Source: Gammaproteobacteria bacterium (GTDB taxonomy: Bacteria; Pseudomonadota; Gammaproteobacteria; GCA-002705445; GCA-002716945). Taken from it: a DNA stretch of 64,000 nt. This document shows, in pieces, positions 35,607 through 55,723 of this stretch. The stretch is taken from assembly GCA_029246085.1 (NCBI GenBank), contig JAQWOB010000035.1, positions 12,407 through 76,406 on the forward strand, written 5' to 3'. The notes under the pieces are model-generated. The model was not told the origin of the DNA and ran no database searches. It was given only the letters and a program-made list of their open reading frames with translations. A program made the translations under genes and the position numbers. The stretch's first letter is position 1; each line of letters opens with the position of its first letter.

Positions 35607-35882
35607 ATGAAAAAAATATCGTCATTCATACCTGTGCATGTTATCAATAAGAATGACTTAATCAAAGGCTTAACTTCTTATATTTCAAATGTCTTTCCAA
35701 AGGATGTGCTTAATAATATAGAAGTAGGCTCTATTAAAGATAATGTGCTTATAATCAGCTGCAAAAATAGTTCAGTTGCAACACTTATGCGGTTCGAAAA
35801 ACAGAGATTTATTGATTTATTGCGTGGCAACAATATTTGTAAAATTGATGATATTAAAGTGACTATTATTAATTATGACTGA
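35607..35882 (+). CDS. DUF721 (DciA-like) protein
   Basis: 91 aa, on the opposite strand between secA and lpxC. This is the position occupied by a DUF721 gene in Pseudomonas and many gammaproteobacteria. Confidence 0.5.
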
Positions 35883-36790: not shown

Positions 36791-36885
36791 ATATTTAGTA
36801 TGTATATTATAGTAATTCTTAATAAATGTTAAGTAATTTCAAGCATTTTAGAACTAATTATATTAGTTTAGACAAAATATTTATA

Positions 36886-38817: not shown

Positions 38818-38818
38818 A

Positions 38819-39754
38819 TTAATACTCTAAAAGTAATAAAAGTAATTGATCATATGAAAAGCCATTCTCTTTTGCAGACTTAGGAACTAAACTATGATCA
38901 GTCATTCCTGGTATAGAGTTAATCTCAATTAAATTAATTGATGAATCTTTATCCATAAAGAAATCAACACGCCCCCAGTTAGAACATCCCATGCTATTAA
39001 AGGCCTTCATGCAAATTAAATTAATATTTTCACGGACATCTTCTGAAAACTCAGGAAATGAAAAAATAGTATCATTATCTAAATACTTAGCTTCATAATT
39101 ATAAAACTCTCTCTTTGTTTCTATTTTAATTATTGGAAAAACTTCATTATTGATAATAGGAGCAGTATATTCTGGAGCAGTAATAAATTCTTCAATAAAA
39201 TACTCATGTGCATTGGCGCTATTAAGGGAAAGTTTTTTTAATATATCAGTGCAGCTAGATGAATAAAAATTAGCGCTATCAAATATTTTTATACCTACGC
39301 TTGACCCAGATTCACATGGTTTTAAAATAAATTTTTCATCAAACATTTCCTTTATATCTTTTGAAGAAATATTATCAGATAATTTTAAATAATTTGGTGT
39401 TTTTAATTTATTTCTTAACCAAATTTCTTTGGTATGAACCTTATTGAATGAAAGTTTTGAAGACTTTGAGTTTGAGCCAACATATTTAATAGATAACCTG
39501 TCTAAATAACTTTGTACTAGACCATCTTCACCACCAGACCCATGAATTAAGTTTAGCACAAGGTCTATATTATTAGATTTAATAAATTTAGAAAGTAAAT
39601 CAATATCATCATATTGAAAATCAAAAATAAAAGTATTTAAATTATTGCCTAGGAGTGATTCGTGAGCAGATTTACCGCTATCTAAAGATACTGGTCTTTC
39701 ATCAGACCAACCACCACATAATACTCCAATATTTTTTCCAGATAACTTATTCAT
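38819..39754 (-). CDS. ddl: D-alanine--D-alanine ligase
   Basis: 311 aa ATP-grasp protein (VLCGGWSDERPVSL, LIEINSIPGMT). Confidence 0.85.
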   Translation of the reverse strand: MNKLSGKNIGVLCGGWSDERPVSLDSGKSAHESLLGNNLNTFIFDFQYDDIDLLSKFIKSNNIDLVLNLIHGSGGEDGLVQSYLDRLSIKYVGSNSKSSKLSFNKVHTKEIWLRNKLKTPNYLKLSDNISSKDIKEMFDEKFILKPCESGSSVGIKIFDSANFYSSSCTDILKKLSLNSANAHEYFIEEFITAPEYTAPIINNEVFPIIKIETKREFYNYEAKYLDNDTIFSFPEFSEDVRENINLICMKAFNSMGCSNWGRVDFFMDKDSSINLIEINSIPGMTDHSLVPKSAKENGFSYDQLLLLLLEY

Positions 39755-40616
39755 TACTATTTGAGTATATACAAATCTCTCTGGTTAAAGAGATATTATA
39801 TTTATTTTTAATTAATTTTGAAACATATTTGATTAGCTGAATGAGATCTTTACATGAACCACTTCCATCATTAATAAAATAATTACAATGTTTTTTTGAT
39901 ATATATATACCGCCAATTTTTCTTTTTTGAATATCAAGAGAATCAATAAGTGAGCTTGCTGGAGTATTCTTTGAGGGATTCTTGAAGATACAGCCTGACG
40001 ACCATTGTCTTACAGGTTGAGTAATGCTTCTATGCTTGGAATATTCCTTAAGAAGATTTACATCAAATACCTTTCTTTTATTTATAACTAATAATGCATC
40101 TAAAAATAATAAAATATTATTTTTATCAACACTACGATAAGAAGTTTTAACTTTTTTATATGAAATATTCGTTATATCGCCTATGCTATTAACGACATTA
40201 ACAGAATCAACAGAATTCCATATTGATTGTTTAAATGCACCAGCATTCATTGCTAATGCTCCACCAATTGTTCCTGGTATTCCATGAAGAAACTCAAAGC
40301 CAGCTATAGACTTCTTATGGCAAAACTTTGCGAGTCTCGCACATGATATGCTGGCAGAAACAGATATATATTTATTATCAATGATGGAAATATGCCTATT
40401 ATGATATTTACTTAAAGAAATAATATCAGACTTATATCCATTATCTGAAAATGCAATATTTGAGCCTTTACCGATAACCAGTGTTTTTGGCAATAATAAT
40501 ATTTTTTTCAATCTAGATATATCTTCCAGAGATTCTGGAAGATATATTTTATTTGAATTTCCACCAATGCGAATTGTTGTAAAACTTTTTAGGGCTATAT
40601 TTTTTTGTATTATCAT
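39747..40616 (-). CDS. murB: UDP-N-acetylenolpyruvoylglucosamine reductase
   Basis: 289 aa; FAD-binding GIPGTIGGALAMNAGA. It sits in the slot that murC occupies in E. coli-type dcw clusters. Confidence 0.85.
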   Translation of the reverse strand: MIIQKNIALKSFTTIRIGGNSNKIYLPESLEDISRLKKILLLPKTLVIGKGSNIAFSDNGYKSDIISLSKYHNRHISIIDNKYISVSASISCARLAKFCHKKSIAGFEFLHGIPGTIGGALAMNAGAFKQSIWNSVDSVNVVNSIGDITNISYKKVKTSYRSVDKNNILLFLDALLVINKRKVFDVNLLKEYSKHRSITQPVRQWSSGCIFKNPSKNTPASSLIDSLDIQKRKIGGIYISKKHCNYFINDGSGSCKDLIQLIKYVSKLIKNKYNISLTREICIYSNSNE

Positions 40617-40619
40617 AGT

Positions 40620-41693
40620 TTATCTAATTAGTTTCAAAGAATCTTCCATAATAATATTTATAGCATTTGACGGAAATATATTTTGTATATTTTTTGATAA
40701 CATATACATCCGCTTTTGATCATTTAAGAGAATGTTGGCAATAGTGACAAAATTCTCAATAAAATCTATTTTTTCTTCTAACAAAATAGCAGCAGAATTC
40801 TTAGCTAGATGGCTAGCATTAAAAAATTGGTGGTTATCTGTTGCATGAGGAAACGGAACTAACAAGGCTGCTATTCCTATTTTTGATAGTTCAGATATAG
40901 ATGTCGAACCAGCTCTACATATCACTAAATCTGCCCAATCATATAACTCCTCGATTTTTTCAGAATATGCCAACACAGTTGCATCTATAGAATATTTTAA
41001 ATATTTATTTTGTACCAACTCCGCATGATTAGGGCCACTAATATGTTTTATGGAGATATTAATACTATGAAAGTGAGAAAAAGCAAAAGGCATTGTATTA
41101 TTTAAAAATTCTGCACCTTGGCTACCTCCCATAACTAAAATATTGATACAAGGATTATTATCGATATATTTTTCTTCAGGTTTCTTTACTTTATCAAATG
41201 ATGTTCTAACAGGATTACCCGTATGTATTATTTTTTTACTATTTTTTTTAAAACTTAAAGGAAATGTTTCATAAACACGTTTAGCAAAATAATAATTAAT
41301 TTTATTAGCTGTACCAGCTATTGAATTTTGTTCATGAACTACCATTGGTATTGATGATAGAAAAGAAGTTATAGAGGCTCCAACACTAACATAGCCTCCA
41401 AATCCAATTACCAGAGATGGCTTATATTTTTTAAGCAGCATAAATGATTCATATATGGATTTTAAAAAATTAAATAGGCCTAATATTTTTTTCAGTGATG
41501 ATTTCCCTCGTATCCCTTGGGAACTTACATGTTCGATAATTACTGATGAATTATTTACTACTTTATTTTCAAGACCATTTTTAGTTCCAATCCATAAAAT
41601 CTTATAACCAAGCTTTATATATTCTTGCGCAATAGTATATGCAGGATATACATGTCCACCAGTGCCGCTAGCTAGAATTGCAATTATTTTCAT
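40620..41693 (-). CDS. murG: UDP-GlcNAc:lipid I GlcNAc transferase MurG
   Basis: 357 aa GT28 protein (IIAILASGTGGHVYPA). Confidence 0.9.
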   Translation of the reverse strand: MKIIAILASGTGGHVYPAYTIAQEYIKLGYKILWIGTKNGLENKVVNNSSVIIEHVSSQGIRGKSSLKKILGLFNFLKSIYESFMLLKKYKPSLVIGFGGYVSVGASITSFLSSIPMVVHEQNSIAGTANKINYYFAKRVYETFPLSFKKNSKKIIHTGNPVRTSFDKVKKPEEKYIDNNPCINILVMGGSQGAEFLNNTMPFAFSHFHSINISIKHISGPNHAELVQNKYLKYSIDATVLAYSEKIEELYDWADLVICRAGSTSISELSKIGIAALLVPFPHATDNHQFFNASHLAKNSAAILLEEKIDFIENFVTIANILLNDQKRMYMLSKNIQNIFPSNAINIIMEDSLKLIR

Positions 41694-41699
41694 ATTAAA

Positions 41700-42896
41700 T
41701 TAATACCCTCTTTTAACAGCATGACTAATTTTCTGGCGATTTTCAATTTGTATTCTAATCAATAGACCAATAAAAATAAACATCATTAAAAGATTGGTTC
41801 CTCCATAACTAATAAACGGTAATCCCATCCCCTTAGTTGGAGCCAAACCTGTATTAACCATTATATGTATTAAAGCCTGATAAGTAATAAAAAAACCTAA
41901 TGTAAAACTTAAATTTCCTGCAAATATAAGATTATTATCATATGATTTATTAGCAAGCCTGACAATTCTAAACAAAATAATACCAAATAAGATAAGTACA
42001 ATTAAAGAAAAAAATAGCCCAAGTTCTTCAGCAATTAAAGCAAATATAAAATCATTATATGACTCAGGTAAATAGCTAAGTTTCTGAACACTAGAGCCTA
42101 ACCCTAAACCAAAAAATCCTCCTTTTCCAAATGCTAAGAGTGATGCTATAAGTTGGTAACCACCCCCGGACTGATCATCCCAAGGATTCATAAAAGATAT
42201 GATTCTCCTAAATCTATATGGCTCATAGAGTATCAATGGGACAGCTGTTAGAAAAGCCAGTGATATATAAGAAAATAAATATTTTAAATGTGCCCCAGCT
42301 ACTAACATTAAAGAAAAAAATGTAAAAACAAGTAGCGCTGTACTACCAAAATCTTTCTGATAAAGAATAATTAAAGATAATGCAACAATCATGAATAGGC
42401 ATTTATTAAAACTCTTGGTTACATCATGTTTGACAATAAATCCAGAAATCCAAAACATCACAAATAATCTTGACACTTCAGAAACCTGTATAGTTATAAA
42501 ACCTAAGTCAAGCCATCTTTTTGCTCCATTTATTTCTTTTCCTAACCCAGGGATAAATATTATCAATGAAATAATAAAAGAAAATAATAAAAAATATTTT
42601 CCATAATCATAATAAAAACTTAGTTTAATTTTAGAAATTATTGCTGAAAGAACTATTCCCATGGATAAATAGATTAAATGTTTAGTAATAAAATAATAAG
42701 GGTTTGATTTCTGATCTAATGCATAATCAAGTGTAGCTGAAGTAATCATTATCATTCCTATAGATAATAAAGCAACAAAGCATATGATTAAGGTATGATC
42801 TATGCCTTGGCTTTCACTAATTAATATATTCTTTTTAATAAAATCACTTAACAATGTTCTGAACCGCAGAAATAAATGCAGCACCTCTTTCTTCAT
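41700..42896 (-). CDS. ftsW: Peptidoglycan polymerase FtsW (SEDS family)
   Basis: SEDS multi-TM protein. Start placed at MKKEV (42896); the ORF track's 42950 start would overlap murD by 107 nt. Even the chosen start overlaps murD by about 50 nt. Confidence 0.8.
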   Translation of the reverse strand: MKKEVLHLFLRFRTLLSDFIKKNILISESQGIDHTLIICFVALLSIGMIMITSATLDYALDQKSNPYYFITKHLIYLSMGIVLSAIISKIKLSFYYDYGKYFLLFSFIISLIIFIPGLGKEINGAKRWLDLGFITIQVSEVSRLFVMFWISGFIVKHDVTKSFNKCLFMIVALSLIILYQKDFGSTALLVFTFFSLMLVAGAHLKYLFSYISLAFLTAVPLILYEPYRFRRIISFMNPWDDQSGGGYQLIASLLAFGKGGFFGLGLGSSVQKLSYLPESYNDFIFALIAEELGLFFSLIVLILFGIILFRIVRLANKSYDNNLIFAGNLSFTLGFFITYQALIHIMVNTGLAPTKGMGLPFISYGGTNLLMMFIFIGLLIRIQIENRQKISHAVKRGY

Positions 42897-44151
42897 AATT
42901 TTTAAACATGTCAAAGCTTGGGCTGGCAGGAGATAACAAAACATTATCATTAGCTAATGAGTGTGATAATGATATTTCAACGGCAGACTCAATACTCTTG
43001 GCATCTATCGTTTTAGTAGTTATTTTTAGCTGGCTCTTGATATATTCTTTATTTTCGCCAATAAATATTACAAGTTTAACCTTTTGATTTATCAAAGAAC
43101 TCAATGACTCATAATTCATATCCTTCATAGATCCGCCAAGTATTAAAATAATTTTCTCATCGATGCACTCCAGTGCAGCCTTTGTTGATGCACAATTTGT
43201 AGACTTTGAGTCATTATACCAATTTATATTATTTGATGATTCAATCAACTCTATTCTATGAGGTAAATAATTAAAATCACTTAAAGCATTTAAGGAATTC
43301 TTGATATTAACCTTAATAATATCTAATATAGAGATAACTCCTAATATGTTTTCAAGATTATGCTTTCCTTTATATTCTAAATTTTCATTTTTAAAATATA
43401 TCTTGGAGCCATCGTAATTTAAATCTTTAATTATGGAGCCATTAATAATAATTTCTTCAGTATCGGCTATGCCATAAGTCTTAATTTTTTTTGTACCGTC
43501 AGTAAGATGATTAATTGAATTTGAAGCTAAGGAAAAAGATGAATCATTATATATTGATAATTTTATTTTTGAGTAATTTTCTATATTTTTATGTCGCTCC
43601 AGATGATCATTTTCAATATTCGTAATCACACTAATAAATGATTTTAAATCTGACATATACTCAAGCTGATAACTAGATAGCTCAAGTATGATGTAATCAT
43701 AAGTATTGTTTATGATTGAAAGAGGAGGTATTCCATTATTTCCACACGCAATACAACTATAACCTATTTTATTAAATGCATATTTTAGCATTGTCACCAT
43801 GGTAGTCTTTCCATTAGTTCCGGTAACGGATATTAGCTTACTATCACAGTATCTTTTAAAGATATCAATATCTGTTGTAATGTTAATGTTATGTCTTTTA
43901 ATATCTTTAAATATCCTATGATTTTTATCCAGACCTGGGCTAATTATTACTTCATCAACATTACTTAGAAGATCAACGGGGTACTCTTTAAAATAAATAG
44001 AATCAAGATTAATTCCTCTAAAGTTAGAATTAAGAAAATAGTCTTTATCTCTAGTATCAAATATCCTAAAGGGGATATCTTTAGACTTAAAAAAATCTGC
44101 GCATGATATGCCTGTAATGCCAATACCTAGTATTAATTTATTTTTTGACAT
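42844..44151 (-). CDS. murD: UDP-N-acetylmuramoylalanine--D-glutamate ligase
   Basis: 435 aa Mur ligase (VTGTNGKTT). Confidence 0.9.
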   Translation of the reverse strand: MSKNKLILGIGITGISCADFFKSKDIPFRIFDTRDKDYFLNSNFRGINLDSIYFKEYPVDLLSNVDEVIISPGLDKNHRIFKDIKRHNINITTDIDIFKRYCDSKLISVTGTNGKTTMVTMLKYAFNKIGYSCIACGNNGIPPLSIINNTYDYIILELSSYQLEYMSDLKSFISVITNIENDHLERHKNIENYSKIKLSIYNDSSFSLASNSINHLTDGTKKIKTYGIADTEEIIINGSIIKDLNYDGSKIYFKNENLEYKGKHNLENILGVISILDIIKVNIKNSLNALSDFNYLPHRIELIESSNNINWYNDSKSTNCASTKAALECIDEKIILILGGSMKDMNYESLSSLINQKVKLVIFIGENKEYIKSQLKITTKTIDAKSIESAVEISLSHSLANDNVLLSPASPSFDMFKNYEERGAAFISAVQNIVK

Positions 44152-44152
44152 T

Positions 44153-45238
44153 TTATCTAATTTTTAATGATGCTAAAGCTATGAGAACCAAAACAAAGGT
44201 TATAATCCAGAAACGAACAATGATTTTTGGTTCTGGCCAACCTTTAAGTTCAAAATGATGATGAATAGGTGACATTCTAAAAACTCTTTTACCAAATAAT
44301 TTAAATGAGGCTACTTGGATAATTACAGATAAAGCTTCTACAACAAAAACACCTCCCATTATCGCATATACAACTTCGAGTCTTAGCAAAATCGCAATTG
44401 TAGCTAAGACAGCACCTAACGATAAAGATCCTACGTCCCCCATAAATACTTCAGCTGGGTATGAGTTATACCAAAGAAAACCAAGTCCTGCGCCAACAAT
44501 AGTACTAGAGAATATTGCAACCTCAGATACTCCAGGCAAATAAGGAATTAACAAGTAATTAGCAATATTAAAATTACCTTCAACATAAGCAAATAAAACA
44601 AATGCTGCGGCAATTAATATACAAGGTAAAATAGCAAGTCCATCTAAACCATCAGTTAAATTTACTGCATTACTAGAACCAATAATAACTAATATGGACC
44701 AAGGTATAAAAAATATTCCAAGATATAATGCGAAATCTTTTAAAAAGGGAAGCATTAGTTCTAACTCTATTAAACTTGTTGATGTGCTAAAAATAAAATA
44801 TGCTATGAAACTAGAAATAATAATTTGGAGTATTAATTTTTTCTTTCCGCTTATTCCATCACTTGATGAATGAACAAACTTTTGATAATCATCATAGAAA
44901 CCAATTGCTCCAAATGATATTAATGTGAACAATAATACCCATATATTTTTATTCAAAATGTCAGACCAAAGAAATGTACTAAATATTATAGATATTATTA
45001 TGATAAGACCGCCCATCGATGGCGTTTGAGATTTATTTTCAATATGTGATTTTGGGCCATCACTTCTTATACTTTGGTATAAACTTTTACTATTCAGATA
45101 ATTAATTACTATGGGCCCAAGTATCAAAGAAATTATCAGAGCTGTTAGAGCAGCCAATATGATTCTTAACGTAAGATAATGGAAAACATCAAACCCAGAA
45201 TTATACTGAGCTAAATAGTCAAATAAATAATAAAGCAT
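44153..45238 (-). CDS. mraY: Phospho-N-acetylmuramoyl-pentapeptide transferase
   Basis: 361 aa, 10 TM; conserved DD and HHH motifs (SPIHHHFELKGW). Confidence 0.9.
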   Translation of the reverse strand: MLYYLFDYLAQYNSGFDVFHYLTLRIILAALTALIISLILGPIVINYLNSKSLYQSIRSDGPKSHIENKSQTPSMGGLIIIISIIFSTFLWSDILNKNIWVLLFTLISFGAIGFYDDYQKFVHSSSDGISGKKKLILQIIISSFIAYFIFSTSTSLIELELMLPFLKDFALYLGIFFIPWSILVIIGSSNAVNLTDGLDGLAILPCILIAAAFVLFAYVEGNFNIANYLLIPYLPGVSEVAIFSSTIVGAGLGFLWYNSYPAEVFMGDVGSLSLGAVLATIAILLRLEVVYAIMGGVFVVEALSVIIQVASFKLFGKRVFRMSPIHHHFELKGWPEPKIIVRFWIITFVLVLIALASLKIR

Positions 45239-45245
45239 ATAGTTA

Positions 45246-46586
45246 TTAATCGTTCCTTTCAGTTAATGCATTCACAATAATCTCAAATTCCATAAAACGC
45301 GATGCTTTTACTAAGATATTAACATTATCATTGAGTTGTGGCTTGATAAAGGAAATTAATGCATCAATTGAGTCAAAATCATATGAATTTTTACCAAATT
45401 CCTTAAGGATTGCGCTTGCATATTTACTAATTACAAATAATTTTTTAATCCCCATCTCATATGCATGTTGCACTACTTGCTTATGGTAAAACTCAGAGTT
45501 ATCACCTAATTCACCCATGTCACCCATAATAAGCCAAGGATTACCATCTAATTTTACAAGCGAATTAATGGAAGCCATAAAAGATTGTGGATTAGCATTA
45601 TAAGAACTATCAATAATTCTAGATCCATGCTGCCCTTCCTTTATACTAAATCTTCCATCTATATCATTATAATCATAGAGTCCTTTTATAACATTTGGGG
45701 ATCTAGCTCCAGCTTCATATGAAAGTGCTATTGAAAATAGAATATTATTAAGAGTATGGGTCTCTAAATCATTTACATGCAAATTTGTAATATCTGAATA
45801 TGGTGTTTTAACGCATATATTGTGGTTATTTGAACCAGAGATGCAATAATCAGCAGACTGGCTAATAGATACTGTAATAATTTTATTCTTGTTAGCTTTT
45901 AATAACCACCTTTCAAAATTGTGATCATCCAGGTTCAGTATGACAGTTTTTGGATACCCTTGATATGATAAAATCTCTTCTTTTGTTTTAATAATATTTT
46001 CAATATTTTTAAAACTATCCATATGAGCTGGAGAAACATTTAATAGAGCTACTATAGTTGGTTTTGCAATTTGAACTAATTCTTTTATATCACCAACTTT
46101 ACTAGCTCCCATTTCTAGAACAAAAACCTCATCTGCTTCTGTCCCTTTCAATATTGATAATGGTAACCCTATTTGATTATTATAATTTCTATATGTACTC
46201 AATGTCTGCTTATATGTCCGAAGGATCATGGAAGTCATATTTGTCACAGAAGTTTTTCCATTTGTTCCAGTAATACCGATTACCAAAGGATTGACCTTAT
46301 CTGCATAAAATTTAGCAATATTGGTCAAGGCATCCGTCGTATCATCAACACAAATACATGGAAAGTCTTCCAAAAGATTTTCAGAAATAACAAGTGACGC
46401 GCCATTTTTTATCGCATCATTGATGAATAGATGCCCGTCATAGTTACTACCTTTTATAGCGATAAATAATTCATTTTTACCAATTGTTCTAGAATCAATA
46501 GAGATTCCATCAATAGAAACTCGAGTATTAATATTAATCACTTCTGATTTTAAGATATTTTCTAATTCTGGTATTGATATATTCAT
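45246..46586 (-). CDS. murF: UDP-MurNAc-tripeptide--D-Ala-D-Ala ligase
   Basis: 446 aa Mur ligase (ITGTNGKTSV). Confidence 0.9.
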   Translation of the reverse strand: MNISIPELENILKSEVININTRVSIDGISIDSRTIGKNELFIAIKGSNYDGHLFINDAIKNGASLVISENLLEDFPCICVDDTTDALTNIAKFYADKVNPLVIGITGTNGKTSVTNMTSMILRTYKQTLSTYRNYNNQIGLPLSILKGTEADEVFVLEMGASKVGDIKELVQIAKPTIVALLNVSPAHMDSFKNIENIIKTKEEILSYQGYPKTVILNLDDHNFERWLLKANKNKIITVSISQSADYCISGSNNHNICVKTPYSDITNLHVNDLETHTLNNILFSIALSYEAGARSPNVIKGLYDYNDIDGRFSIKEGQHGSRIIDSSYNANPQSFMASINSLVKLDGNPWLIMGDMGELGDNSEFYHKQVVQHAYEMGIKKLFVISKYASAILKEFGKNSYDFDSIDALISFIKPQLNDNVNILVKASRFMEFEIIVNALTERND

Positions 46587-47989
46587 TTCAATAATTTTTT
46601 TAAATAATCTATATCATTATGAACTATAACTTTATTATTATAAATAATATTATCTTCATTACCCTTACCAGCAAAAATTATCACAGCATCTTTTGTAGAC
46701 ATCGAAAGTGCTTTCTTAATTGCCTTCTTTCTATTCGGTATAATATAAATATTAGACTTATCTTTTATTTTACTATGAATATCATCAATTATATTCATAG
46801 AGTCTTCATTTCTTGGGTTATCATCGGTTAGAATAATCTTATCAGAATATTTTTTAGCAATTATACCCATTCTAGACCTTTTACTGACATCACGATCTCC
46901 GCCACAACCAAATAAAGTTATTAAAAATAGTTTTCCAGACTTTATTTTTATATCTCTTAAAAGTAGCTCTAAGGCATTCTCTGTATGCGCATAATCTATT
47001 ATATATACAGCATTACTTCTTCTATCCCTGAAATAATTCATACGCCCCCTAATGGCTTTAGATCTCTTATTTAGAATAAATTTGATTTTATTTAATGAAT
47101 AGCTCTCATTAATGAGAAGCTTATATAATAAAGATCGATTAGATTTTACAAAGTGATCTTCCAATATATCTGATGTTTTAGTCAAGCGATCTATTATTTT
47201 TTCATCTACATGACTTCCATAAGTTATTATTTTTGATTTTTTAATATTACTAAATTTAGATATAGTATTCTTACAGTCTATATTTAAAAAAATGTTTCCC
47301 ATAGTCATATCCAAAAGTTTTTGCTTAGACTTTATGTAATTTTTAAATGTCTTATGGTACTCGATATGATCTTTATTGAGATTTGTCACTATAGAATCAT
47401 TAAAATTTATATGATTTAATCTTCCCTGATCCAAACCTTGGGAAGAACACTCTATTACAATAATATCTACTTTTTTTCTTCTAAAATTATCAAATGTTTT
47501 ATATAAAATGTCACTTCTCGGCGTTGTATAACCTGTACGCTTTAGTCTTGGATATATCCCATTGCCTTCTGTAGATATTAGACCAACCTTGTTCCCTAGT
47601 TTAGTCAAACTCTCAGCAATAAAATGACAGGTTGATGTTTTACCATCTGTACCAGTCACACCTATTACTTTTTTATCTTTAAGCGGTTCATTATATAAAT
47701 AATCAAGAAATATATTTAAATTATCATTTAAATATTTTGATTTAAAAACTGGAATATCTTTTTTTAAGAAATTAATATTAATAGTAGTTGTTATAATTAA
47801 TCCAATAATTCCATCATCTATAGCCTCATTTATATAATCATACATGTCCTTTCTGGATAAATTATTGAGGACTAATATTTTATTTTTACAGTTATCTTTG
47901 CTATGAAAAGAAAATATTTTTGTAAAGTTTACAATATTGGGATTAATCTCTTGTGCAAATTTAATTATATTTCTAATATGGCTATTCAT
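46583..47989 (-). CDS. murE: UDP-MurNAc-L-Ala-D-Glu--2,6-diaminopimelate ligase
   Basis: 468 aa Mur ligase (VTGTDGKTST) with a DNPR motif for meso-DAP specificity. Confidence 0.85.
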   Translation of the reverse strand: MNSHIRNIIKFAQEINPNIVNFTKIFSFHSKDNCKNKILVLNNLSRKDMYDYINEAIDDGIIGLIITTTININFLKKDIPVFKSKYLNDNLNIFLDYLYNEPLKDKKVIGVTGTDGKTSTCHFIAESLTKLGNKVGLISTEGNGIYPRLKRTGYTTPRSDILYKTFDNFRRKKVDIIVIECSSQGLDQGRLNHINFNDSIVTNLNKDHIEYHKTFKNYIKSKQKLLDMTMGNIFLNIDCKNTISKFSNIKKSKIITYGSHVDEKIIDRLTKTSDILEDHFVKSNRSLLYKLLINESYSLNKIKFILNKRSKAIRGRMNYFRDRRSNAVYIIDYAHTENALELLLRDIKIKSGKLFLITLFGCGGDRDVSKRSRMGIIAKKYSDKIILTDDNPRNEDSMNIIDDIHSKIKDKSNIYIIPNRKKAIKKALSMSTKDAVIIFAGKGNEDNIIYNNKVIVHNDIDYLKKLLK

Positions 47990-47992: not shown

Positions 47993-49678
47993 TTATTTAA
48001 TATCTGGATAAACTCTTAATAAATTTAATGAATGACTCATAAATTCTTTAAATATAGGCGCAGCATGTCTTCCTCCCGATGCGTTACCTTTTCTAGGATT
48101 GCGAACAATAATTGCAGCTACATACTCGGGCTTAGAGGCTGGCACAATACCTACAAATATTGCATTATGTTTATTTATATTATATTTACCATTATCTATC
48201 ATTCTTGATGTGCCAGTTTTCCCAGCAACAGAATATTTTTCTAATTTAGCTTTTCTTCCTGTACCTCCTATCTCAATGACAGACCTCATCATCTTAATGA
48301 TCTCTTTTGAAATATTTTTGCTCAGAACTTCATCATAATAGATTTCATTCTTATTTACTTTTTCATATGTTAATTGAATCTTTTTTCCATAATTGGCTAA
48401 TGTAACATAAGCATTAGCTAAGTGTAATAATGTTGCTGATACTCCATATCCATAACTAATAGAGGCATGGTCATCTTCAGACCAATCATTATAATGATGC
48501 AGATTGCCATTTTGTTCGCCAGGCCAATCAATATATAGACTGCCACCAAAATCTAAATCTCTTAGAGTATTATATATATCCTCTCTATTTGTTTTTTTTG
48601 ACAGGGTTGCTGCTCCAATATTACTTGATTTCTGAATGATTCCTTTTAGATCTAGAATCCCCAGGTCTTTATAATCTTTGAGAGGCTTGTTGTTTAATTC
48701 GAAACCTAGAGAGGTATTAATAGTATAATTATAATCAACAGATTTTGTCTCTAATGCTGTGTATACTGCAAATGGTTTCATGATGGATCCTGGCTCAAAT
48801 GTATATGTTGCTACTTTATTTCTTATTTTATGCCCAGTCATCTCTTGTCTATTATTAGGATTAAATGATGGATAATTCACCATAGAAATTATTTCACCTG
48901 TTGTATTTTTTATCAAAACAAGTGACGCGCTATCAGCATTACTACTCTCTACATGTTTTTGTAAAATATCATATCCAATAAACTGAATCCTTTTGTCTAA
49001 AGATAGATGTATGTTCTTTCCTGGTATTGGTTTTTTAATAAGCTCAATTAGTTCAACTGAGCGTCCAAGATTATCTTTTCTAACTTTTCTGATTCCTGGA
49101 GTAGGACTTAATTCTTTATTTTTTGAGTACTCTATACCTGCTTGACCATTGTCATCAATATCTGTAAATCCAATTATATTAGAAAAATATGACCCTCCAA
49201 GATAAACACGAGAAAATTCAGATATAAAATAAATATATGGTAGATCTAAATCCATTATTTTTGATGCAAGACTATCATCTAGCTTTCTTTTTAAATAATA
49301 TTCTTTCTTATTCGAGTGTTTCTTCAATATTTTTGAAAAATCTTTTTCAGACAATCCAATCATTTTGAGTAACTTACTATATTTTATATCCTTTATTTTT
49401 AGTAATTGTTTAACTTTATAAACATTAATGCATAATGTTTTTTTAGGTAGACTCATTGCAAGAATTTCACCATTTCTATCGTAAATCATACCTCTATATT
49501 TTTTAATTATCCTATGATCTATTTGGCGTTTATCTGCTACATGGCTGAGATTAACTTTGCAGTCAGATTTATTAAATAAAAAACAATCGGTATCAAACCC
49601 TTGTAATAAAATAATTCTTGCTGTGATGAGAAGAAAAGTTATGGAGACAATAAATAATATAAAATATTGTCTCCACAT
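47993..49678 (-). CDS. ftsI: Peptidoglycan D,D-transpeptidase FtsI (PBP3)
   Basis: 561 aa; N-terminal TM, SIMK (SxxK), SSN and KTGT motifs. Confidence 0.9.
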   Translation of the reverse strand: MWRQYFILFIVSITFLLITARIILLQGFDTDCFLFNKSDCKVNLSHVADKRQIDHRIIKKYRGMIYDRNGEILAMSLPKKTLCINVYKVKQLLKIKDIKYSKLLKMIGLSEKDFSKILKKHSNKKEYYLKRKLDDSLASKIMDLDLPYIYFISEFSRVYLGGSYFSNIIGFTDIDDNGQAGIEYSKNKELSPTPGIRKVRKDNLGRSVELIELIKKPIPGKNIHLSLDKRIQFIGYDILQKHVESSNADSASLVLIKNTTGEIISMVNYPSFNPNNRQEMTGHKIRNKVATYTFEPGSIMKPFAVYTALETKSVDYNYTINTSLGFELNNKPLKDYKDLGILDLKGIIQKSSNIGAATLSKKTNREDIYNTLRDLDFGGSLYIDWPGEQNGNLHHYNDWSEDDHASISYGYGVSATLLHLANAYVTLANYGKKIQLTYEKVNKNEIYYDEVLSKNISKEIIKMMRSVIEIGGTGRKAKLEKYSVAGKTGTSRMIDNGKYNINKHNAIFVGIVPASKPEYVAAIIVRNPRKGNASGGRHAAPIFKEFMSHSLNLLRVYPDIK

Positions 49679-49703
49679 ATATTTGCTTAAGCTATTACTT
49701 TTA

Positions 49704-50873
49704 CTAGTCAGCTTGTTGCCTTAAGAAAGCAGGTATATCTATATTCTCTGCTTTTTCTTTTTCTGTAATTGTATTGCTAGTTATAGGATCACTATAGCTA
49801 GAAGTTGCTGTTGATGAAACATTGGCTGTTGTCATTGCTGCCATTGTTCCATTAGATGAAGATATGCCTGTTTGACTATGAGATATATTTTCTTCTAAAG
49901 CATCTGGATTTTCAGAAAATTCTTCAAAACCTGTTGCTATCAGAGTCACTCTTAATTCTCCCAAACTATCTTCTTCTTTTATACAACCTACAATAACGGT
50001 TGCATTTTCATTTGCAATTTCTTTAACTCGCTCGCCTATTACACCAAACTCATTAGAAGTTAAATTTGCTCCAGCTGTAATATTAACTAATACACCACTT
50101 GCGCCATGCAAGTCTATATTATCTAATAAAGGACTATTTAATGCGGCTTGAACAGCTTCTTCCGCACGATTATCACCTGTCGCACAACCAGAACCCATCA
50201 TTGCTTTACCTCTGCCTGACATTACAGTTTTAACATCAGCGAAGTCAACATTAATGAAACCTCTTATGGTTATAATTTCAGCAATACCTTTTACAGCCCC
50301 TCTCAAAACATCATTTGCATTTTCAAAAGATGAGAATATTGAGTTATCACCTCCAAATACTTCAGATAGCTTTTCATTAGGTATTACAATCAATGAGTCA
50401 ACCCACTCACTCAATGCTTCTATACCTTGCTCAGCATGCAACATCCTTTTAGCTCCTTCGAACTCATATGGTTTTGTTACAACAGCTACTGTTAATATTC
50501 CTGCATCTCTTGCAATTTGAGCAATAACTGATGCGGCTCCAGTGCCGGTACCACCACCCATTCCTGCAGCAATAAATAACATATCAGCACCTTCAATAGC
50601 AGAAGATAACTCTTCTTTTGCTTCTAAAGCTGCTTGCCTTCCTTTTTCTGGATCAGCTCCTGCTCCTAGACCTTTAGTGATCTCTGATCCAATTTGTATC
50701 ATTGTAGCGCCTTTCACATCTCTCAAAGCCTGAGAATCTGTATTTGCTAAAATAAATTCTGCACCATGAATCTTAGATTCAAGCATTGACATGACAGCAT
50801 TACCACCACCGCCGCCAACACCAATCACCTTTATCACAGCATTCTGATTATACTCATTAACTAACTCAAACAT
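49704..50873 (-). CDS. ftsZ: Cell division GTPase FtsZ
   Basis: 389 aa; GVGGGGGNAV tubulin signature, C-terminal conserved peptide DIPAFLRQQAD. Near-collinear with E. coli FtsZ. Located between ftsL and ftsI, which is atypical. Confidence 0.95.
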   Translation of the reverse strand: MFELVNEYNQNAVIKVIGVGGGGGNAVMSMLESKIHGAEFILANTDSQALRDVKGATMIQIGSEITKGLGAGADPEKGRQAALEAKEELSSAIEGADMLFIAAGMGGGTGTGAASVIAQIARDAGILTVAVVTKPYEFEGAKRMLHAEQGIEALSEWVDSLIVIPNEKLSEVFGGDNSIFSSFENANDVLRGAVKGIAEIITIRGFINVDFADVKTVMSGRGKAMMGSGCATGDNRAEEAVQAALNSPLLDNIDLHGASGVLVNITAGANLTSNEFGVIGERVKEIANENATVIVGCIKEEDSLGELRVTLIATGFEEFSENPDALEENISHSQTGISSSNGTMAAMTTANVSSTATSSYSDPITSNTITEKEKAENIDIPAFLRQQAD

Positions 50874-50887
50874 ACTACACCTCCGGT

Positions 50888-51157
50888 TTATTCAACCAAA
50901 TCTAAATAAATTATTTTCTTTTTTGATGGAATTTCCATTCCAAGACTTTTTTCAATATTGGTATTTACTAACTTCTGATTAATTAGTTTTCCCTTAGTAT
51001 CCAGCAACCTCTTATGCTCATTTAATTCGAAAGATAATTCTTGCTCAATATTTTCAATACTAATATTCATGGTTCTATTTTTATGCTTTAAATGAACAAC
51101 GGTAAAAGCTGATATTGTAATAATAAATAATATAAATAAATTAAACATAATCCTCAT
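50888..51157 (-). CDS. ftsL: Cell division protein FtsL
   Basis: 89 aa bitopic protein with a TM then coiled coil; immediately downstream of rsmH with a 17-nt overlap. Confidence 0.7.
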   Translation of the reverse strand: MRIMFNLFILFIITISAFTVVHLKHKNRTMNISIENIEQELSFELNEHKRLLDTKGKLINQKLVNTNIEKSLGMEIPSKKKIIYLDLVE

Positions 51158-52085
51158 TAGCTTTTTCCAGTATATTTAATTTCGCAGACCTAGATCTTGG
51201 ATTTAAATCAATCTCATCCTTACTAGGTTTAATTGACTTAGCAACAATATTGAACATTTTTTTTAAAAATTCACTTTTTATAGGTAAGTTTCTTGGAGTA
51301 GAAATATTTTCATCCGTTACCGCAAGAAAATTTTTAATTACTCTGTCTTCTAGAGAATGATATGTTAAAAGTACTAATCTACCTTTTGGAGCCAGAATAT
51401 TATAACTATTACTCAATACATCTTTTAAAACTTCTAACTCTTTATTCATGAAGATTCTTATGGCTTGAAACGTTCTTGTGGCATTATGTTTATGCTTTTC
51501 ATTTCTAGGCATAGCTTTATCTATTATTTTGGCTAACTGTCCAGTATCTGAAATTTTTTCTTGATCCCTCTGGTATACTATTGCTCTAGCGATACGTCTC
51601 GAGTACCTTTCATCTCCATACTTCCAAATTATATGTGATAACGTTTGTTCATCAACGGTTTCTAACCATTCGCAAGCAGAAATACCAGATGATTGATCAA
51701 ACCTCATATCTATAGGTCCATTTTTATTAAAACTGAATCCTCTACCTGCTTCATCAAGATGGTGTGAGGAAACTCCTAAATCAAATAGAATTCCATTTAT
51801 TGAACCATATATGCCCCATTCTCTAGAAAAATTTTCTAATTCTGAAAAACATCCATGTTTAAGGGTGAATCTTTTGTCGCTAATAATATCTTCTCTAATC
51901 ATATTAATCGCATATGTATCTTTATCGATTGCATAGAGTCGACCATCGGAATCTAAAGCATCTAAAATCTTTCTTGAATGGCCGCCAAATCCAAATGTCG
52001 CATCAACATAAGTACCATTAGGCACAATCTTCATAGCATTAATAGACTGATTAAGCATTACGGGTATATGTTTCGGAGCAATCAT
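51141..52085 (-). CDS. rsmH: 16S rRNA (cytosine1402-N4)-methyltransferase RsmH (MraW)
   Basis: 314 aa; HIPVML and DATFGFGGHS motifs. Confidence 0.9.
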   Translation of the reverse strand: MIAPKHIPVMLNQSINAMKIVPNGTYVDATFGFGGHSRKILDALDSDGRLYAIDKDTYAINMIREDIISDKRFTLKHGCFSELENFSREWGIYGSINGILFDLGVSSHHLDEAGRGFSFNKNGPIDMRFDQSSGISACEWLETVDEQTLSHIIWKYGDERYSRRIARAIVYQRDQEKISDTGQLAKIIDKAMPRNEKHKHNATRTFQAIRIFMNKELEVLKDVLSNSYNILAPKGRLVLLTYHSLEDRVIKNFLAVTDENISTPRNLPIKSEFLKKMFNIVAKSIKPSKDEIDLNPRSRSAKLNILEKANEDYV

Positions 52086-52282
52086 TATTGAATACCTTTT
52101 TTATATTTCATAATATGTTCATATGCATTTCTTGCATCTATGAATTTCTCAGTTGACTTAATATCATCAGGGTTCTTATCAGGATGATATTTTTGAGCAA
52201 CTCTCATAAATGCCTGTTTGATGACTCTAACGTCTTCATTTCCAGTTACACCCAATGCTCTATAATATCTATCTAATTTCAT
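52085..52282 (-). CDS. J-domain-only protein (DnaJ-like, 65 aa)
   Basis: YYRALGV...KQAFMRVAQKYHPDKNPDD...ARNAYEHI is a J-domain with the HPD motif. Start and stop each share one nucleotide with the mraZ stop and the rsmH start. Confidence 0.65.
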   Translation of the reverse strand: MKLDRYYRALGVTGNEDVRVIKQAFMRVAQKYHPDKNPDDIKSTEKFIDARNAYEHIMKYKKGIQ

Positions 52283-52734
52283 TAAATTCTAATATCTGAT
52301 AAAACAGATTCCTCTGATTCATCTGTTTCTTCAGATCTCCATTTATTGACTTTATTATTCCAAATATCATCGCTCCAAATTTCAAATTTTTGACCTTGTC
52401 CTATTAAAGTGACTTTTTTAGACATCTCAGCAACGAGTCTAAGAGGCTTAGGTAATAATATTCTTCCGTTGGAATCTAACTCTAAATCCTCTGCATGGCC
52501 TATTAGTAAGCGCTGTATTCTTCTAGTATTTTTAGTAAAGCTTGGTAAGTCATTGATTTTACTTTCAATATTAGAGAAAATAGTTGCCGGATAAAGGAGT
52601 AAGCATTTTTCTTCTGAATCAATCGTAACAACCATATTGCCATTCGACTGATCACTAATAGTATTTCTATACTTGGTTGGTATAGTTAACCTGCCTTTTC
52701 CATCCAAGTTTATGTTATGGATACCTTTAAACAT
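52282..52734 (-). CDS. mraZ: Transcriptional regulator MraZ
   Basis: 150 aa; duplicated DxxxR-type MraZ repeats (LDGKGRLTIP, LDSNGRILLP). Confidence 0.9.
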   Translation of the reverse strand: MFKGIHNINLDGKGRLTIPTKYRNTISDQSNGNMVVTIDSEEKCLLLYPATIFSNIESKINDLPSFTKNTRRIQRLLIGHAEDLELDSNGRILLPKPLRLVAEMSKKVTLIGQGQKFEIWSDDIWNNKVNKWRSEETDESEESVLSDIRI

Positions 52735-52899
52735 TTACCATTATTCCCCACAATCTTACATAAATTACCATATATCAACACTATATGACTTTTTATTGAT
52801 GTATGCAAGGCTTTGGCTTCATAAATATATAGAATATACTAAAAATAGTCTATATTAATCAAATACTTATATTTAACAAGAGCTTATCTTGATATAGTG

Positions 52900-53240: not shown

Positions 53241-53295
53241 TCATATAGTTGACTCTCGATATAAGTATAGAGAACTTTAATATATATAGGAATAT

Positions 53296-55722: not shown

Positions 55723-55723
55723 T

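What the first reader, a model, noticed from the sequence alone, without database searches (positions are those of the whole stretch)
49704..51157. ftsZ relocated to the 5' part of the dcw cluster (ftsL-ftsZ-ftsI)
In the near-universal dcw order, ftsZ follows ftsQ-ftsA near the 3' end, just before lpxC in gammaproteobacteria. Here ftsA is followed directly by lpxC. A full-length canonical ftsZ instead lies between ftsL and ftsI, with a 14-nt gap after ftsL and a 25-nt gap before ftsI. The tight spacing argues for a genuine, co-transcribed arrangement rather than an assembly join. This would place ftsZ under the mraZ-proximal promoter(s) and remove the classical ftsA:ftsZ translational and ratio coupling. 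That ratio is thought to matter for Z-ring assembly.
Basis: seen in the sequence. Interest (0 to 1): 0.6.

Follow-up and report, generated by a model that had tools for sequence, protein, structure and literature searches.

The report
ftsZ moved next to ftsI
In an uncultured order of small-genome marine bacteria, the main cell-division gene ftsZ has moved from the end of the normally invariant division gene cluster to a spot between ftsL and ftsI, and the ftsI gene that follows it has lost its normal start codon in most lineages and begins inside a conserved RNA hairpin.

Summary
On the minus strand the order is mraZ, a 65-aa J-domain ORF, rsmH, ftsL, ftsZ (49704-50873), ftsI, murE, murF, mraY, murD, ftsW, murG, murB, ddl, ftsQ, ftsA, lpxC. 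The gaps are 14 nt and 25 nt, as reported.

It is not an assembly artefact. All 17 distinct lineages examined share ftsL-ftsZ-ftsI; they include two single-cell genomes and contigs of 0.6-0.9 Mb. Over 30 metagenome contigs show ftsA-lpxC with no ftsZ. All 67 outgroup loci keep ftsQ-ftsA-ftsZ.

Two members are placed in GTDB order GCA-002705445, family GCA-002716945, which is near SAR86 but is not SAR86.

ftsZ looks native: its GC3 is 0.19, like its neighbours. It is the only cluster gene with a GGAGG ribosome-binding site. The mraZ promoter is conserved; no conserved promoter lies closer to ftsZ.

Two new points emerged. A 12-bp hairpin at the first ftsI codons is kept by compensatory changes. 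ftsI alone lacks ATG/GTG/TTG in 12 of 15 lineages, and its frame stays open back to the ftsZ stop in 17 of 17.

My reading is that this is a rebuilt expression unit giving high FtsZ and low FtsI. The mechanism is inferred, not shown. It is a new variant of a known kind. Interest 0.62.

The parts
52780..52808 (-). Candidate Pmra promoter: -35 TTGCAT (52808-52803), 17-nt spacer, -10 TATAGT (52785-52780). It is followed down to the mraZ ATG by 10-nt periodic TGG/TGT boxes that look like an MraZ operator.
   Evidence: The sequence is. The same promoter and boxes are conserved in all 15 lineages aligned. Function is inferred from the consensus and its conservation.
52282..52734 (-). mraZ
   Evidence: TIGR00242, 145.8 bits against a cut-off of 98.35.
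52085..52282 (-). A 65-aa protein consisting only of a J-domain (HPD motif, KYHPDKNPDD), inserted between mraZ and rsmH.
   Evidence: DnaJ N-terminal models match at 5e-14. PF00226 is called at the same place in every relative.
51141..52085 (-). rsmH (mraW)
   Evidence: TIGR00006, 353.2 bits.
50888..51157 (-). ftsL
   Evidence: TIGR02209, 42.4 bits against a cut-off of 42.45. It is an 89-aa bitopic protein. PF04999 is called in relatives.
50880..50884 (-). GGAGG Shine-Dalgarno sequence, 6 nt upstream of the ftsZ ATG.
   Evidence: GGAGG is present before ftsZ in every lineage. None of the other 18 genes tabulated has a comparable site.
49704..50873 (-). ftsZ: full length, canonical, relocated.
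   Evidence: TIGR00065, 388.5 bits. GC3 is 0.19, like its neighbours.
49679..49703 (-). The ftsZ-ftsI spacer. The ftsI frame is open right through it, starting from inside the last codons of ftsZ.
   Evidence: The frame is open in 17 of 17 lineages. Spacer length is fixed at 28 nt (22 nt in one subclade, 29 nt in L142).
49640..49677 (-). Conserved stem-loop over ftsI codons 1-13. The core helix pairs 49675-49664 with 49653-49642.
   Evidence: The fold is -17.5 kcal/mol and is the third most stable 45-nt fold on this strand of the window. Covariation is shown.
47993..49678 (-). ftsI (PBP3). It starts with ATG in this window, but relatives have ATA, ATT or no start codon at that position.
   Evidence: NCBIfam, PDB relatives, and start-codon analysis.
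38155..47989 (-). murE, murF, mraY, murD, ftsW, murG, murB, ddl, ftsQ. There is no murC.
36886..38136 (-). ftsA, now the last gene of the operon.
   Evidence: TIGR01174, 411.3 bits.
36791..36885 (-). The ftsA-lpxC spacer, which is the site ftsZ vacated. It holds a conserved TTGTCTAA motif, a small hairpin, and a promoter-like TTGAAA (36842-36837), 16-nt spacer, AAGAAT (36820-36815). The -10 element reads TAAAAT in most relatives.
35873..36790 (-). lpxC
   Evidence: TIGR00325, 389 bits.

Best explanation
In the ancestor of an uncultured marine gammaproteobacterial lineage, the cell's own ftsZ was moved within the dcw operon. It went from its place after ftsA to the slot between ftsL and ftsI. 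At least two members of the lineage fall in GTDB order GCA-002705445, family GCA-002716945. This step is shown.

The arrangement has been kept ever since. The rest of the neighbourhood stayed ancestral: ftsQ-ftsA, then lpxC-secA-mutT-zapD-coaE. This is also shown.

How it most likely works is inferred, as follows.

1. The whole cluster is transcribed from the conserved, MraZ-controlled promoter upstream of mraZ.
2. ftsZ sits near that promoter and has the only strong GGAGG ribosome-binding site in the cluster, so it is made in large amounts.
3. ftsA sits 13 kb further down with a weak site, so it is made in small amounts. A high FtsZ:FtsA ratio therefore comes from position and ribosome binding. 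In E. coli it comes from the extra ftsZ promoters inside ddlB-ftsA.
4. Directly after ftsZ, a conserved hairpin over the first 13 codons of ftsI insulates the low-demand genes downstream. It could act as a partial terminator, as a 3' stabiliser of the ftsZ message, or as a block to ribosome loading on ftsI.
5. In most lineages ftsI has no ATG, GTG or TTG, and its frame stays open back to the ftsZ stop. ftsI is therefore probably translated at a low level from a near-cognate codon (CUG, AUU or AUA) at or just after the ftsZ stop. Ribosomes that have just finished ftsZ may do this.
For: The relocation is real and old.
- 13 species-level genomes plus further lineages all carry ftsL-ftsZ-ftsI.
- All 67 loci with FtsZ at or below 55% identity carry ftsQ-ftsA-ftsZ.
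- ftsA-lpxC adjacency is seen in more than 30 contigs.

ftsZ is the native gene.
- GC3 is 0.19, against 0.18-0.23 for its neighbours.
- Its divergence from outgroups (53%, against 69% among the outgroups) lies between that of FtsA (43 against 76) and LpxC (60 against 70).

Promoters.
- Pmra and its operator-like boxes are conserved in all lineages.
- Nothing is conserved within 420 nt upstream of ftsZ.
- The same simple inspection does find a conserved lpxC promoter.
- Only ftsZ has GGAGG.

Hairpin.
- It is present in every lineage at -14.6 to -25 kcal/mol.
- The alignment is gap-free and anchored on codons, not on structure.
- 90.8% of cells pair in register, against 32-59% when the partner is slid.
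- 9 of 12 pairs show compensatory changes.
- 39 cells changed on both sides, against 13.1 +/- 2.8 in shuffles; 0 of 500 shuffles reach that.
- A comparably strong hairpin in murB is not conserved, which serves as a control.

ftsI start.
- Across 12 dcw genes and 10-16 lineages, ftsI is the only gene that systematically lacks a canonical start: 12 of 15 lineages. The only other miss is ftsW in one lineage (L007), which I take to be an alignment artefact.
- Gene callers consequently truncate ftsI to 487-548 aa, against 561 aa here.
- The frame is open across the spacer in 17 of 17 lineages; the product of the shuffle probabilities is 2.5e-7.
- The W-R...R...Q pattern after the spacer has the same 18-residue spacing as in E. 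coli and P. aeruginosa FtsI, so it must be translated. The comparison sequences are from my own memory. One search shows only that residues 47-559 align with residues 47-558 of full-length FtsI.
Against: - No transcript, protein or ribosome data were available. Co-transcription, termination at the hairpin and the ftsI start are all inferred.
- The U-rich tract after the hairpin also encodes the FtsI membrane helix, so the resemblance to a terminator is confounded. The simple terminator scan did not flag it because of its 12-nt loop.
- In this window itself ftsI has a normal ATG, so here nothing unusual is needed to start it.
- No single near-cognate codon is shared by all lineages.
- The lineages are related, so the shuffle statistics overstate independence.
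- Simple consensus scans can miss promoters, so an ftsZ-specific promoter is not excluded.
- Many outgroups also have some hairpin after ftsZ, so a 3' hairpin may not be a novelty of the new site.
Confidence: 0.7

Rival explanations
1. Assembly or binning artefact: a chimeric join placed ftsZ between ftsL and ftsI.
For: The window comes from a metagenome-type assembly. Its 99%-identical twin L001 is a MAG contig.
Against: The same junctions appear in independent short-read, long-read and single-cell assemblies from many samples and 17 lineages. The junction sequences have diverged while keeping their features. The reciprocal ftsA-lpxC junction is equally widespread.
Confidence: 0.01
2. Xenologous replacement: a foreign ftsZ was inserted between ftsL and ftsI, and the native copy after ftsA was then lost.
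For: Insertion followed by loss is mechanistically as easy as transposition within the operon. The clade's FtsZ is only 51-55% identical over its full length to the outgroups sampled.
Against: - GC3 is identical to the neighbours'.
- Its divergence from outgroups lies between that of FtsA and LpxC from the same genome.
- All nearest hits are Gammaproteobacteria, including Burkholderiales.
- The C-terminal peptide is the usual proteobacterial one.
Confidence: 0.06
3. The hairpin has no RNA function. It is either a by-product of coding for the FtsI membrane helix, or a DNA palindrome bound by a protein or used in recombination.
For: It lies wholly inside coding sequence. U-rich codons for a membrane helix make A/U pairing easy. 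A palindrome forms equally well in DNA.
Against: - The arm sequences differ between lineages but stay complementary: GGAGACAATA, GAGACGATCA, GGCTGCTGTTAT, GGCGACGATA.
- The changes alter amino acids on both arms, which is not expected from coding constraint or from a sequence-specific protein site.
- Slid registers pair at only 32-59%.
- It is among the three most stable local folds in 64 kb.
Confidence: 0.12
4. FtsZ and FtsI are joined into one protein by a programmed +1 ribosomal frameshift at the end of ftsZ.
For: - In 16 of 17 lineages the ftsI frame is the ftsZ frame shifted by +1, and it opens 17 nt before the end of the ftsZ stop.
- The topology would be allowed, because the FtsI N-terminus is cytoplasmic.
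- UUA-AGG-C resembles the yeast Ty1 +1 frameshift site. AGG is invariant in 12 lineages, although it makes up only 15% of Arg codons.
Against: - Lineage L142/L143 has a 29-nt spacer in two independent samples, which puts ftsI in the other frame; that frame opens only 4 nt before the stop.
- Subclade B uses the common codon AGA.
- No slippery P-site codon allows re-pairing.
- The hairpin lies 25-30 nt from the stop, too far to stimulate a shift there.
Confidence: 0.04
5. A second, canonical ftsZ exists elsewhere in these genomes, and the copy beside ftsI is an extra paralogue.
For: Only 64 kb of the genome is visible here.
Against: - There is no second copy in the window.
- ftsA-lpxC is empty in all relatives.
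- The copy beside ftsI is a full equivalog with the FtsA/ZipA/ZapD-binding tail.
- Protein searches returned one FtsZ type for the clade.
- The genomes are about 1.2 Mb.
Confidence: 0.03

Closest known systems
Canonical proteobacterial dcw cluster (E. coli: mraZ-rsmH-ftsL-ftsI-murE-murF-mraY-murD-ftsW-murG-murC-ddlB-ftsQ-ftsA-ftsZ, then lpxC)
   Same: The gene set, the single orientation, the tight packing, the MraZ-type promoter region, and the downstream lpxC-secA-mutT-zapD-coaE neighbourhood are all the same.
   Different: ftsZ lies between ftsL and ftsI instead of after ftsA. A J-domain ORF sits between mraZ and rsmH. murB takes the place of murC. No conserved ftsZ-proximal promoter was found. 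ftsI lacks a canonical start in most lineages.
Reduced dcw operon of Mollicutes (mraZ-mraW-ftsA-like-ftsZ), as discussed for Mycoplasma genitalium in PMC12957436
   Same: ftsZ lies a few genes behind mraZ and is presumably expressed from the MraZ-controlled promoter.
   Different: In Mollicutes the closeness comes from deleting the peptidoglycan genes. Here all of those genes are kept, and ftsZ itself moved in front of them.
Weak-start and coupled genes: infC and pcnB of E. coli (AUU starts), and termination-reinitiation coupling of adjacent genes (from my own knowledge)
   Same: A low-abundance protein is encoded right behind a highly translated gene. There is no strong start codon and no Shine-Dalgarno sequence of its own.
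   Different: Here the start codon is not even fixed between close relatives: ATG, ATA, ATT, or none at that position. The start region is also buried in a conserved hairpin. No experiment links ftsI translation to ftsZ termination.
Intrinsic terminators and attenuators inside operons
   Same: A stable stem is followed by a U-rich tract, between a high-demand gene and low-demand genes. In subclade B the stem is GC-rich with a 4-nt loop and a run of U residues (L011: GGCC then UUUUUUGUUUUUUU).
   Different: It lies inside the coding sequence of the downstream essential gene. In subclade A the loop is 8-12 nt and the U tract starts 4-7 nt after the stem.
J-domain division factors (ARC6 / Ftn2 / ZipN of chloroplasts and cyanobacteria; from my own knowledge)
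   Same: A J-domain protein is associated with FtsZ-based division. Here the association is by operon position only.
   Different: The protein here is 65 aa, with a J-domain and no other domain and no membrane segment. No interaction has been tested.

Membership tests
FtsZ (TIGR00065 equivalog) | Whole-protein score above the curated cut-off | tested here: met
   388.5 bits against a cut-off of 295.2.
FtsZ (TIGR00065 equivalog) | Tubulin signature GGGTG[ST]G, and the conserved C-terminal peptide that binds FtsA, ZipA and ZapD | tested here: met
   GGGTGTG and DIPAFLRQQAD are present. The peptide is essentially invariant in all 17 lineages, with I replaced by V in three.
FtsZ (TIGR00065 equivalog) | GTP-dependent polymerisation into a Z ring | not testable with these tools
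   No biochemical data. A ZapD gene in the window and an intact FtsA gene are consistent with a normal partner set.
dcw cluster | Division and peptidoglycan genes co-oriented and tightly packed behind mraZ-rsmH | tested here: met
   16 genes from mraZ to ftsA on one strand, with gaps of -107 to +25 nt.
dcw cluster | Canonical internal order, with ftsZ after ftsQ-ftsA at the 3' end | tested here: not met
   ftsZ lies between ftsL and ftsI, and ftsA is followed by lpxC.
dcw cluster | Transcription of the whole cluster from the mraZ promoter | not testable with these tools
   There is only indirect support: a conserved promoter and operator-like boxes, and no conserved internal promoter before ftsZ.
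Intrinsic (Rho-independent) terminator | A stable GC-containing stem-loop immediately followed by a U tract | tested here: inconclusive
   The stem is conserved and stable. The U tract directly follows the stem in subclade B but is offset in subclade A, and it is confounded by the codons for the membrane helix. The consensus scan did not report it.
Programmed +1 frameshift site (prfB or Ty1 type) | A slippery P-site codon that can re-pair in the +1 frame, next to a slow A-site codon, and conserved | tested here: not met
   GAC/GAU before the stop cannot re-pair. UUA-AGG-C is replaced by UUA-AGA-C in subclade B. The frame relation is broken in L142.
J-domain (PF00226) | J-domain fold with an HPD motif | tested here: met
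   DnaJ models match at 5e-14 over residues 3-61. HPD is present. PF00226 is called in all relatives.

The most novel reading that the evidence does not exclude
Moving ftsZ created a new two-gene translational unit. In most of this order the essential septal transpeptidase FtsI has no start codon of its own. It is made only by ribosomes that have just finished FtsZ and restart on a near-cognate codon at the ftsZ stop. A conserved hairpin over the first ftsI codons blocks independent ribosome entry and ends most transcripts there. FtsI, and through transcription-translation coupling the whole downstream cell-wall operon, would then be produced as a small fixed fraction of FtsZ synthesis.
Probability: 0.3. 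Interest if true: 0.8.

Novelty: new variant of a known kind. Interest (0 to 1): 0.62.

Why it matters
[quoted passage not shown] That stability is used to argue that the order itself matters for division, and ftsA-ftsZ adjacency is tied to the FtsZ:FtsA ratio.

A whole order of abundant marine bacteria has lived for a long time with ftsZ at the other end of the operon. This shows the canonical position is not obligatory, and it gives a natural experiment in how the ratio can be set differently.

The side findings point to a compact way of setting the amounts of division proteins in a streamlined genome. ftsI has no canonical start, it begins inside a covarying hairpin, and a J-domain gene sits in the operon.

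There is also a practical consequence. Automatic annotation truncates FtsI in most genomes of this clade (487-548 aa instead of about 561 aa). Studies that use ftsZ transcripts as a growth index should know that ftsZ is wired differently here.

Tried and rejected
1. I assumed the clade was SAR86 and rejected that. SAG AG-461-I20 (GCA_902605525.1) is listed as o__GCA-002705445; f__GCA-002716945 among the non-SAR86 reference genomes whose GTDB taxonomy is tabulated in a supplementary table of PMC11582366. L151 is GCA_002716945.1 itself. Two earlier look-ups by isolate name or accession found nothing.

2. I tried to learn the gene order in the sister order SAR86 and failed.
   - The supplements of the SAR86 paper hold only marker presence or absence.
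   - I ran the representative search and picked a low-GC representative, P0246. It turned out to belong to the Methylococcales.

3. Generic promoter and terminator scans of the region were uninformative: 100 promoter-like sites against 114.5 expected, and 7 terminator-like sites against 6.2 expected. I replaced them with conservation-based inspection.

4. I looked for a conserved promoter within 420 nt upstream of ftsZ and found none.

5. The strong hairpin in murB (40514-40558) is not conserved even in close relatives, so I dropped it as a feature and kept it as a control.

6. FtsZ-FtsI frameshift fusion: I considered this seriously because of the fixed +1 frame, then downgraded it after L142/L143.

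7. An out-of-frame NTG overlapping the TGG codon as the ftsI start, followed by a +1 slip on a U run: the base N follows background composition, and the alternative ORF is not conserved (reasoned).

8. Literature searches for ftsZ relocation, and for a near-cognate ftsI start, found nothing relevant. Megrian et al. 2022 on dcw evolution is not in the searchable library and was not read.
Full report
**1. What is in the window**

ORF listing and NCBIfam models give one co-oriented block on the minus strand.

- mraZ 52282-52734
- a 65-aa J-domain ORF 52085-52282
- rsmH 51141-52085
- ftsL 50888-51157
- ftsZ 49704-50873
- ftsI 47993-49678
- murE, murF, mraY, murD, ftsW, murG, murB, ddl
- ftsQ 38155-38817
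- ftsA 36886-38136
- after a 95-nt gap, lpxC 35873-36790, followed by secA, argJ and a mutT-like gene

The ftsZ product scores 388.5 bits on TIGR00065 (cut-off 295.2). It has the GGGTGTG signature and ends in DIPAFLRQQAD.

No second ftsZ is in the window.

**2. It is a real and old arrangement**

A scan of one genome per GTDB species returned 80 loci. I annotated them by tblastn with the window's own proteins.

- All 13 loci with FtsZ at 65% identity or more carry mraZ, J-domain, rsmH, ftsL, ftsZ, ftsI. They include a 781-kb contig that is 99% identical to the window, a 937-kb long-read contig, and two single-cell genomes.
- All 67 loci with FtsZ at 55% identity or less carry ftsQ-ftsA-ftsZ. 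In most of these lpxC, or secA where lpxC was not detected, follows.

A metagenome scan with FtsA gave 43 contigs. In every contig that reaches past ftsA, lpxC follows ftsA after 94-120 nt with no ftsZ.

Look-ups of further FtsZ variants added more lineages from Tara, JGI, ENA, NCBI and Logan assemblies, all with the same order. That gives 17 distinct junction sequences in total. Misassembly is excluded.

**3. Who they are**

I first suspected SAR86.

- The single-cell genome AG-461-I20 (L006, GCA_902605525.1) appears among the non-SAR86 reference genomes whose GTDB taxonomy is tabulated in a supplementary table of the SAR86 isolate paper, as o__GCA-002705445; f__GCA-002716945 (PMC11582366).
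- Another lineage (L151) is GCA_002716945.1 itself, the genome that family is named after.
- That paper places GCA-002705445 with PIVX01 and SAR86 on a deep gammaproteobacterial branch near Francisellales.
- Francis et al. 2021 (PMC8371827) describe GCA-002705445 as a basal order of small-molecule and C1 users in North Sea blooms.
- This fits the Fae and tetrahydromethanopterin-type genes at 55-64 kb of the window. It also fits the Helgoland-style name of the 99% twin.

I could not test whether SAR86 itself shares the order. None of the papers found mentions the ftsZ position.

**4. Relocation of the native gene, not a foreign copy**

- ftsZ has a GC3 of 0.19, against 0.18-0.23 for its neighbours. 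Its higher overall GC comes from codon positions 1 and 2, meaning from its glycine- and alanine-rich composition.
- Against 20 outgroups the window's FtsZ is 53% identical, while the outgroups are 69% identical among themselves. For FtsA the figures are 43 and 76, and for LpxC 60 and 70. FtsZ is therefore not an outlier; the whole lineage sits on a long branch.
- The neighbourhood left behind (lpxC, secA, mutT-like, zapD, coaE) matches the E. coli order. The E. coli order is from my own knowledge.
- The simplest history is a clean move of ftsZ within an otherwise ancestral region.

**5. How ftsZ is probably expressed**

- Upstream of mraZ, every lineage has TTGCAT, a 17-nt spacer and TATAGT, followed by four 10-nt periodic TGG/TGT boxes (window 52808-52735). 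This is what an MraZ-controlled Pmra looks like, by analogy with E. coli (my own knowledge).
- Within 420 nt upstream of ftsZ, no promoter-like site recurs between lineages, and several lineages have none at all.
- The same kind of inspection readily finds a conserved TTGAAA, 16-nt spacer, TAAAAT in the ftsA-lpxC spacer. lpxC therefore has its own promoter.
- From mraZ to ftsA the gaps run from -107 to +25 nt.
- ftsZ is the only gene of the 19 tabulated with a GGAGG site, and that site is kept in every lineage.

I add that promoter-proximal position plus a strong ribosome-binding site could by themselves give the high FtsZ:FtsA ratio. E. coli obtains that ratio with extra promoters inside ddlB-ftsA (my own knowledge). 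All of this is inference.

**6. A conserved hairpin at the start of ftsI**

Directly after the spacer, the first 13 ftsI codons fold into a stem-loop.

- In the window it spans 49677-49640 (TGGAGACAATA...TATTGTCTCCA).
- At -17.5 kcal/mol it is the third most stable 45-nt fold on this strand of the 64-kb window. The mean is -4.1 with a standard deviation of 2.8.
- Every lineage has a hairpin at the same place, but with different arms.

There are no indels between the two conserved arginines of the FtsI membrane helix. The sequences therefore align by codon without gaps and without reference to structure. On that alignment the 12-bp core behaves as follows:

- 90.8% of cells are paired, against 32-59% when the partner is slid by 1-3 columns.
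- 9 of 12 pairs show changes on both sides.
- 39 cells changed on both sides, against 13.1 +/- 2.8 in shuffles; 0 of 500 shuffles reach that.
- The 17-pair version gives the same picture.

A similar hairpin in murB is lost even in close relatives, which is a useful control.

In subclade B the stem is GC-rich with a 4-nt loop and is followed at once by a U run, like an intrinsic terminator. In subclade A the loop is longer and the U run starts later. Because the U-rich tail also encodes the membrane helix, I call the terminator reading inconclusive.

**7. ftsI has lost its start codon**

In the window ftsI begins with ATG at 49678. At the same position a relative with 88% FtsZ identity has ATA, and more distant ones have ATT, AAA, CTT, CAA, CCA, TCC or GCA.

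A control over 12 dcw genes shows a canonical start at the homologous N-terminus in every lineage for every gene, with two exceptions.

- ftsI: 12 of 15 lineages have no ATG, GTG or TTG between the upstream stop and 8 codons into the gene. One more lineage has a start only after the conserved W-R.
- ftsW in L007: a single isolated miss, which I take to be an alignment artefact.

Gene callers respond by truncating FtsI to 487-548 aa, which removes its membrane anchor.

The region must nevertheless be translated. The pattern W-R, then 17 residues, then R-x-x-L-x-Q is conserved. Its spacing matches E. coli FtsI W22-R23...R41...Q46 and P. aeruginosa W13-R14...R32. Those comparison sequences come from my own memory. 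One search shows only that residues 47-559 align with residues 47-558 of the full-length P. aeruginosa chain.

The ftsI frame contains no stop anywhere in the spacer in 17 of 17 lineages, whereas the other two frames do. Shuffle probabilities of 0.27-0.56 per lineage multiply to 2.5e-7. This overstates significance, because the lineages are related.

Spacer length is fixed at 28 nt, or 22 nt in subclade B. By contrast the ftsL-ftsZ gap varies from 2 to 20 nt, and the ftsA-lpxC gap from 94 to 120 nt.

In 16 lineages the frame is ftsZ shifted by +1 and opens 17 nt before the end of the stop. In L142/L143, seen in two samples, the spacer is 29 nt and the frame is the other one. This speaks against an FtsZ-FtsI frameshift fusion.

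The only in-frame candidates common to nearly all lineages are near-cognates at the very end of ftsZ: CTG within GCT-GAx, or ATT within GAT-TAx. In the 11 non-B lineages that keep the CTG codon, a UAAGG lies 7 nt upstream of it. UAAGG is formed with an AGG arginine codon that is invariant in all 12 non-B lineages, although AGG is only 15% of arginine codons.

My best reading, at moderate confidence, is low-level initiation or re-initiation on a near-cognate codon next to the ftsZ stop. That would suit a protein needed in far smaller numbers than FtsZ.

**8. Putting it together**

The relocation is shown.

The model is inferred, but each piece rests on a conserved sequence feature. The pieces are one promoter, a strong ftsZ ribosome site, a hairpin and weak start that throttle ftsI and perhaps transcription into the 13 kb behind it, and ftsA last.

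The window's own ftsI has an ATG, so in this particular genome the unusual-start question does not arise. The hairpin still starts one base after that ATG.

**9. Comparison with what is known**

This is a dcw cluster in every respect except the defining internal order.

The nearest known case of ftsZ close behind mraZ is the reduced Mollicutes operon, where the closeness comes from gene loss (PMC12957436).

Surveys of dcw order that I could read describe losses and dispersal of genes, not an internal move of ftsZ (PMC8871954). The main survey, Megrian et al. 2022, was not available to me. "Undocumented" therefore means "not found in the held library".

I rate it a new variant of a known kind.

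**10. Verdict**

The interest score is 0.62. The arrangement is a clean, clade-wide exception to one of the most conserved gene orders, and the start-less ftsI and the covarying hairpin add to it. The score is held down because the organisms are uncultured and the mechanism is untested.

Noticed in passing
window 52085-52282 (-): A 65-aa protein consisting only of a J-domain (HPD motif) sits between mraZ and rsmH. Its start and stop overlap its neighbours by one base. It is present at the same place in every lineage of the clade. A J-domain gene inside a dcw operon is unusual, and it recalls the J-domain FtsZ-ring factors ARC6 and ZipN.
   Followed up: partly
window 39747-41693 (-); L112:2076-3467; L007:20360-21085: murC is missing between murG and murB in the window and its close relatives, and it is nowhere else in the 64 kb. 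More distant clade members (L112, and probably L007) still have it there. Its removal from the cluster is therefore a second and later rearrangement. Where murC went was not determined.
   Followed up: partly
window 36886-38136 (-): FtsA of this clade is only 43% identical to 20 outgroup FtsA proteins, which are 76% identical among themselves. FtsZ (53 against 69) and LpxC (60 against 70) from the same loci have diverged much less. FtsA may have evolved faster after it was separated from ftsZ.
   Followed up: no
window 52920-53256 (-): An RNase P RNA gene (RF00010, 294.8 bits) lies directly upstream of the mraZ promoter on the same strand, 185 nt before the mraZ ATG.
   Followed up: no
window 52292-52336 (-): A stable hairpin (-16.3 to -16.7 kcal/mol) lies in the last codons of mraZ, with a purine-rich loop just before the J-domain ORF. 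It is kept, with at least one compensating change, in the closer lineages (L124, L147, L128, L150), but not in L132 or L141.
   Followed up: partly
window 40514-40558 (-): A perfect 14-bp hairpin lies 56-100 nt into murB and is the second most stable local fold in the window. It is absent even from relatives with 93-97% FtsA identity, so it is probably incidental.
   Followed up: yes
window 55120-63911: A cluster of tetrahydromethanopterin/methanofuran-type C1 genes: Fae at 62937-63455, a 4-HFC-P synthase at 58204-58887, DUF447, DUF6513 with a pterin-binding domain, an ATP-grasp protein, and a CitG-like protein. This fits the published description of GCA-002705445 as C1 oxidisers.
   Followed up: no
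window 29528-30870 (+): coaE and zapD lie just beyond the dcw region, as in E. coli. ZapD binds the FtsZ C-terminal tail, so the usual FtsZ partner set seems to be retained.
   Followed up: no
L114:1-3857: One metagenome contig has ftsA at 95% identity to the window but lpxC at 65% and secA at 49%. This may be a chimeric contig or a recombinant.
   Followed up: no
protein P0193: The top hit in the representative library is an 840-aa protein with two FtsZ-like stretches and a proline-rich tail. It looks like a tandem or fused FtsZ from an unrelated high-GC organism.
   Followed up: no
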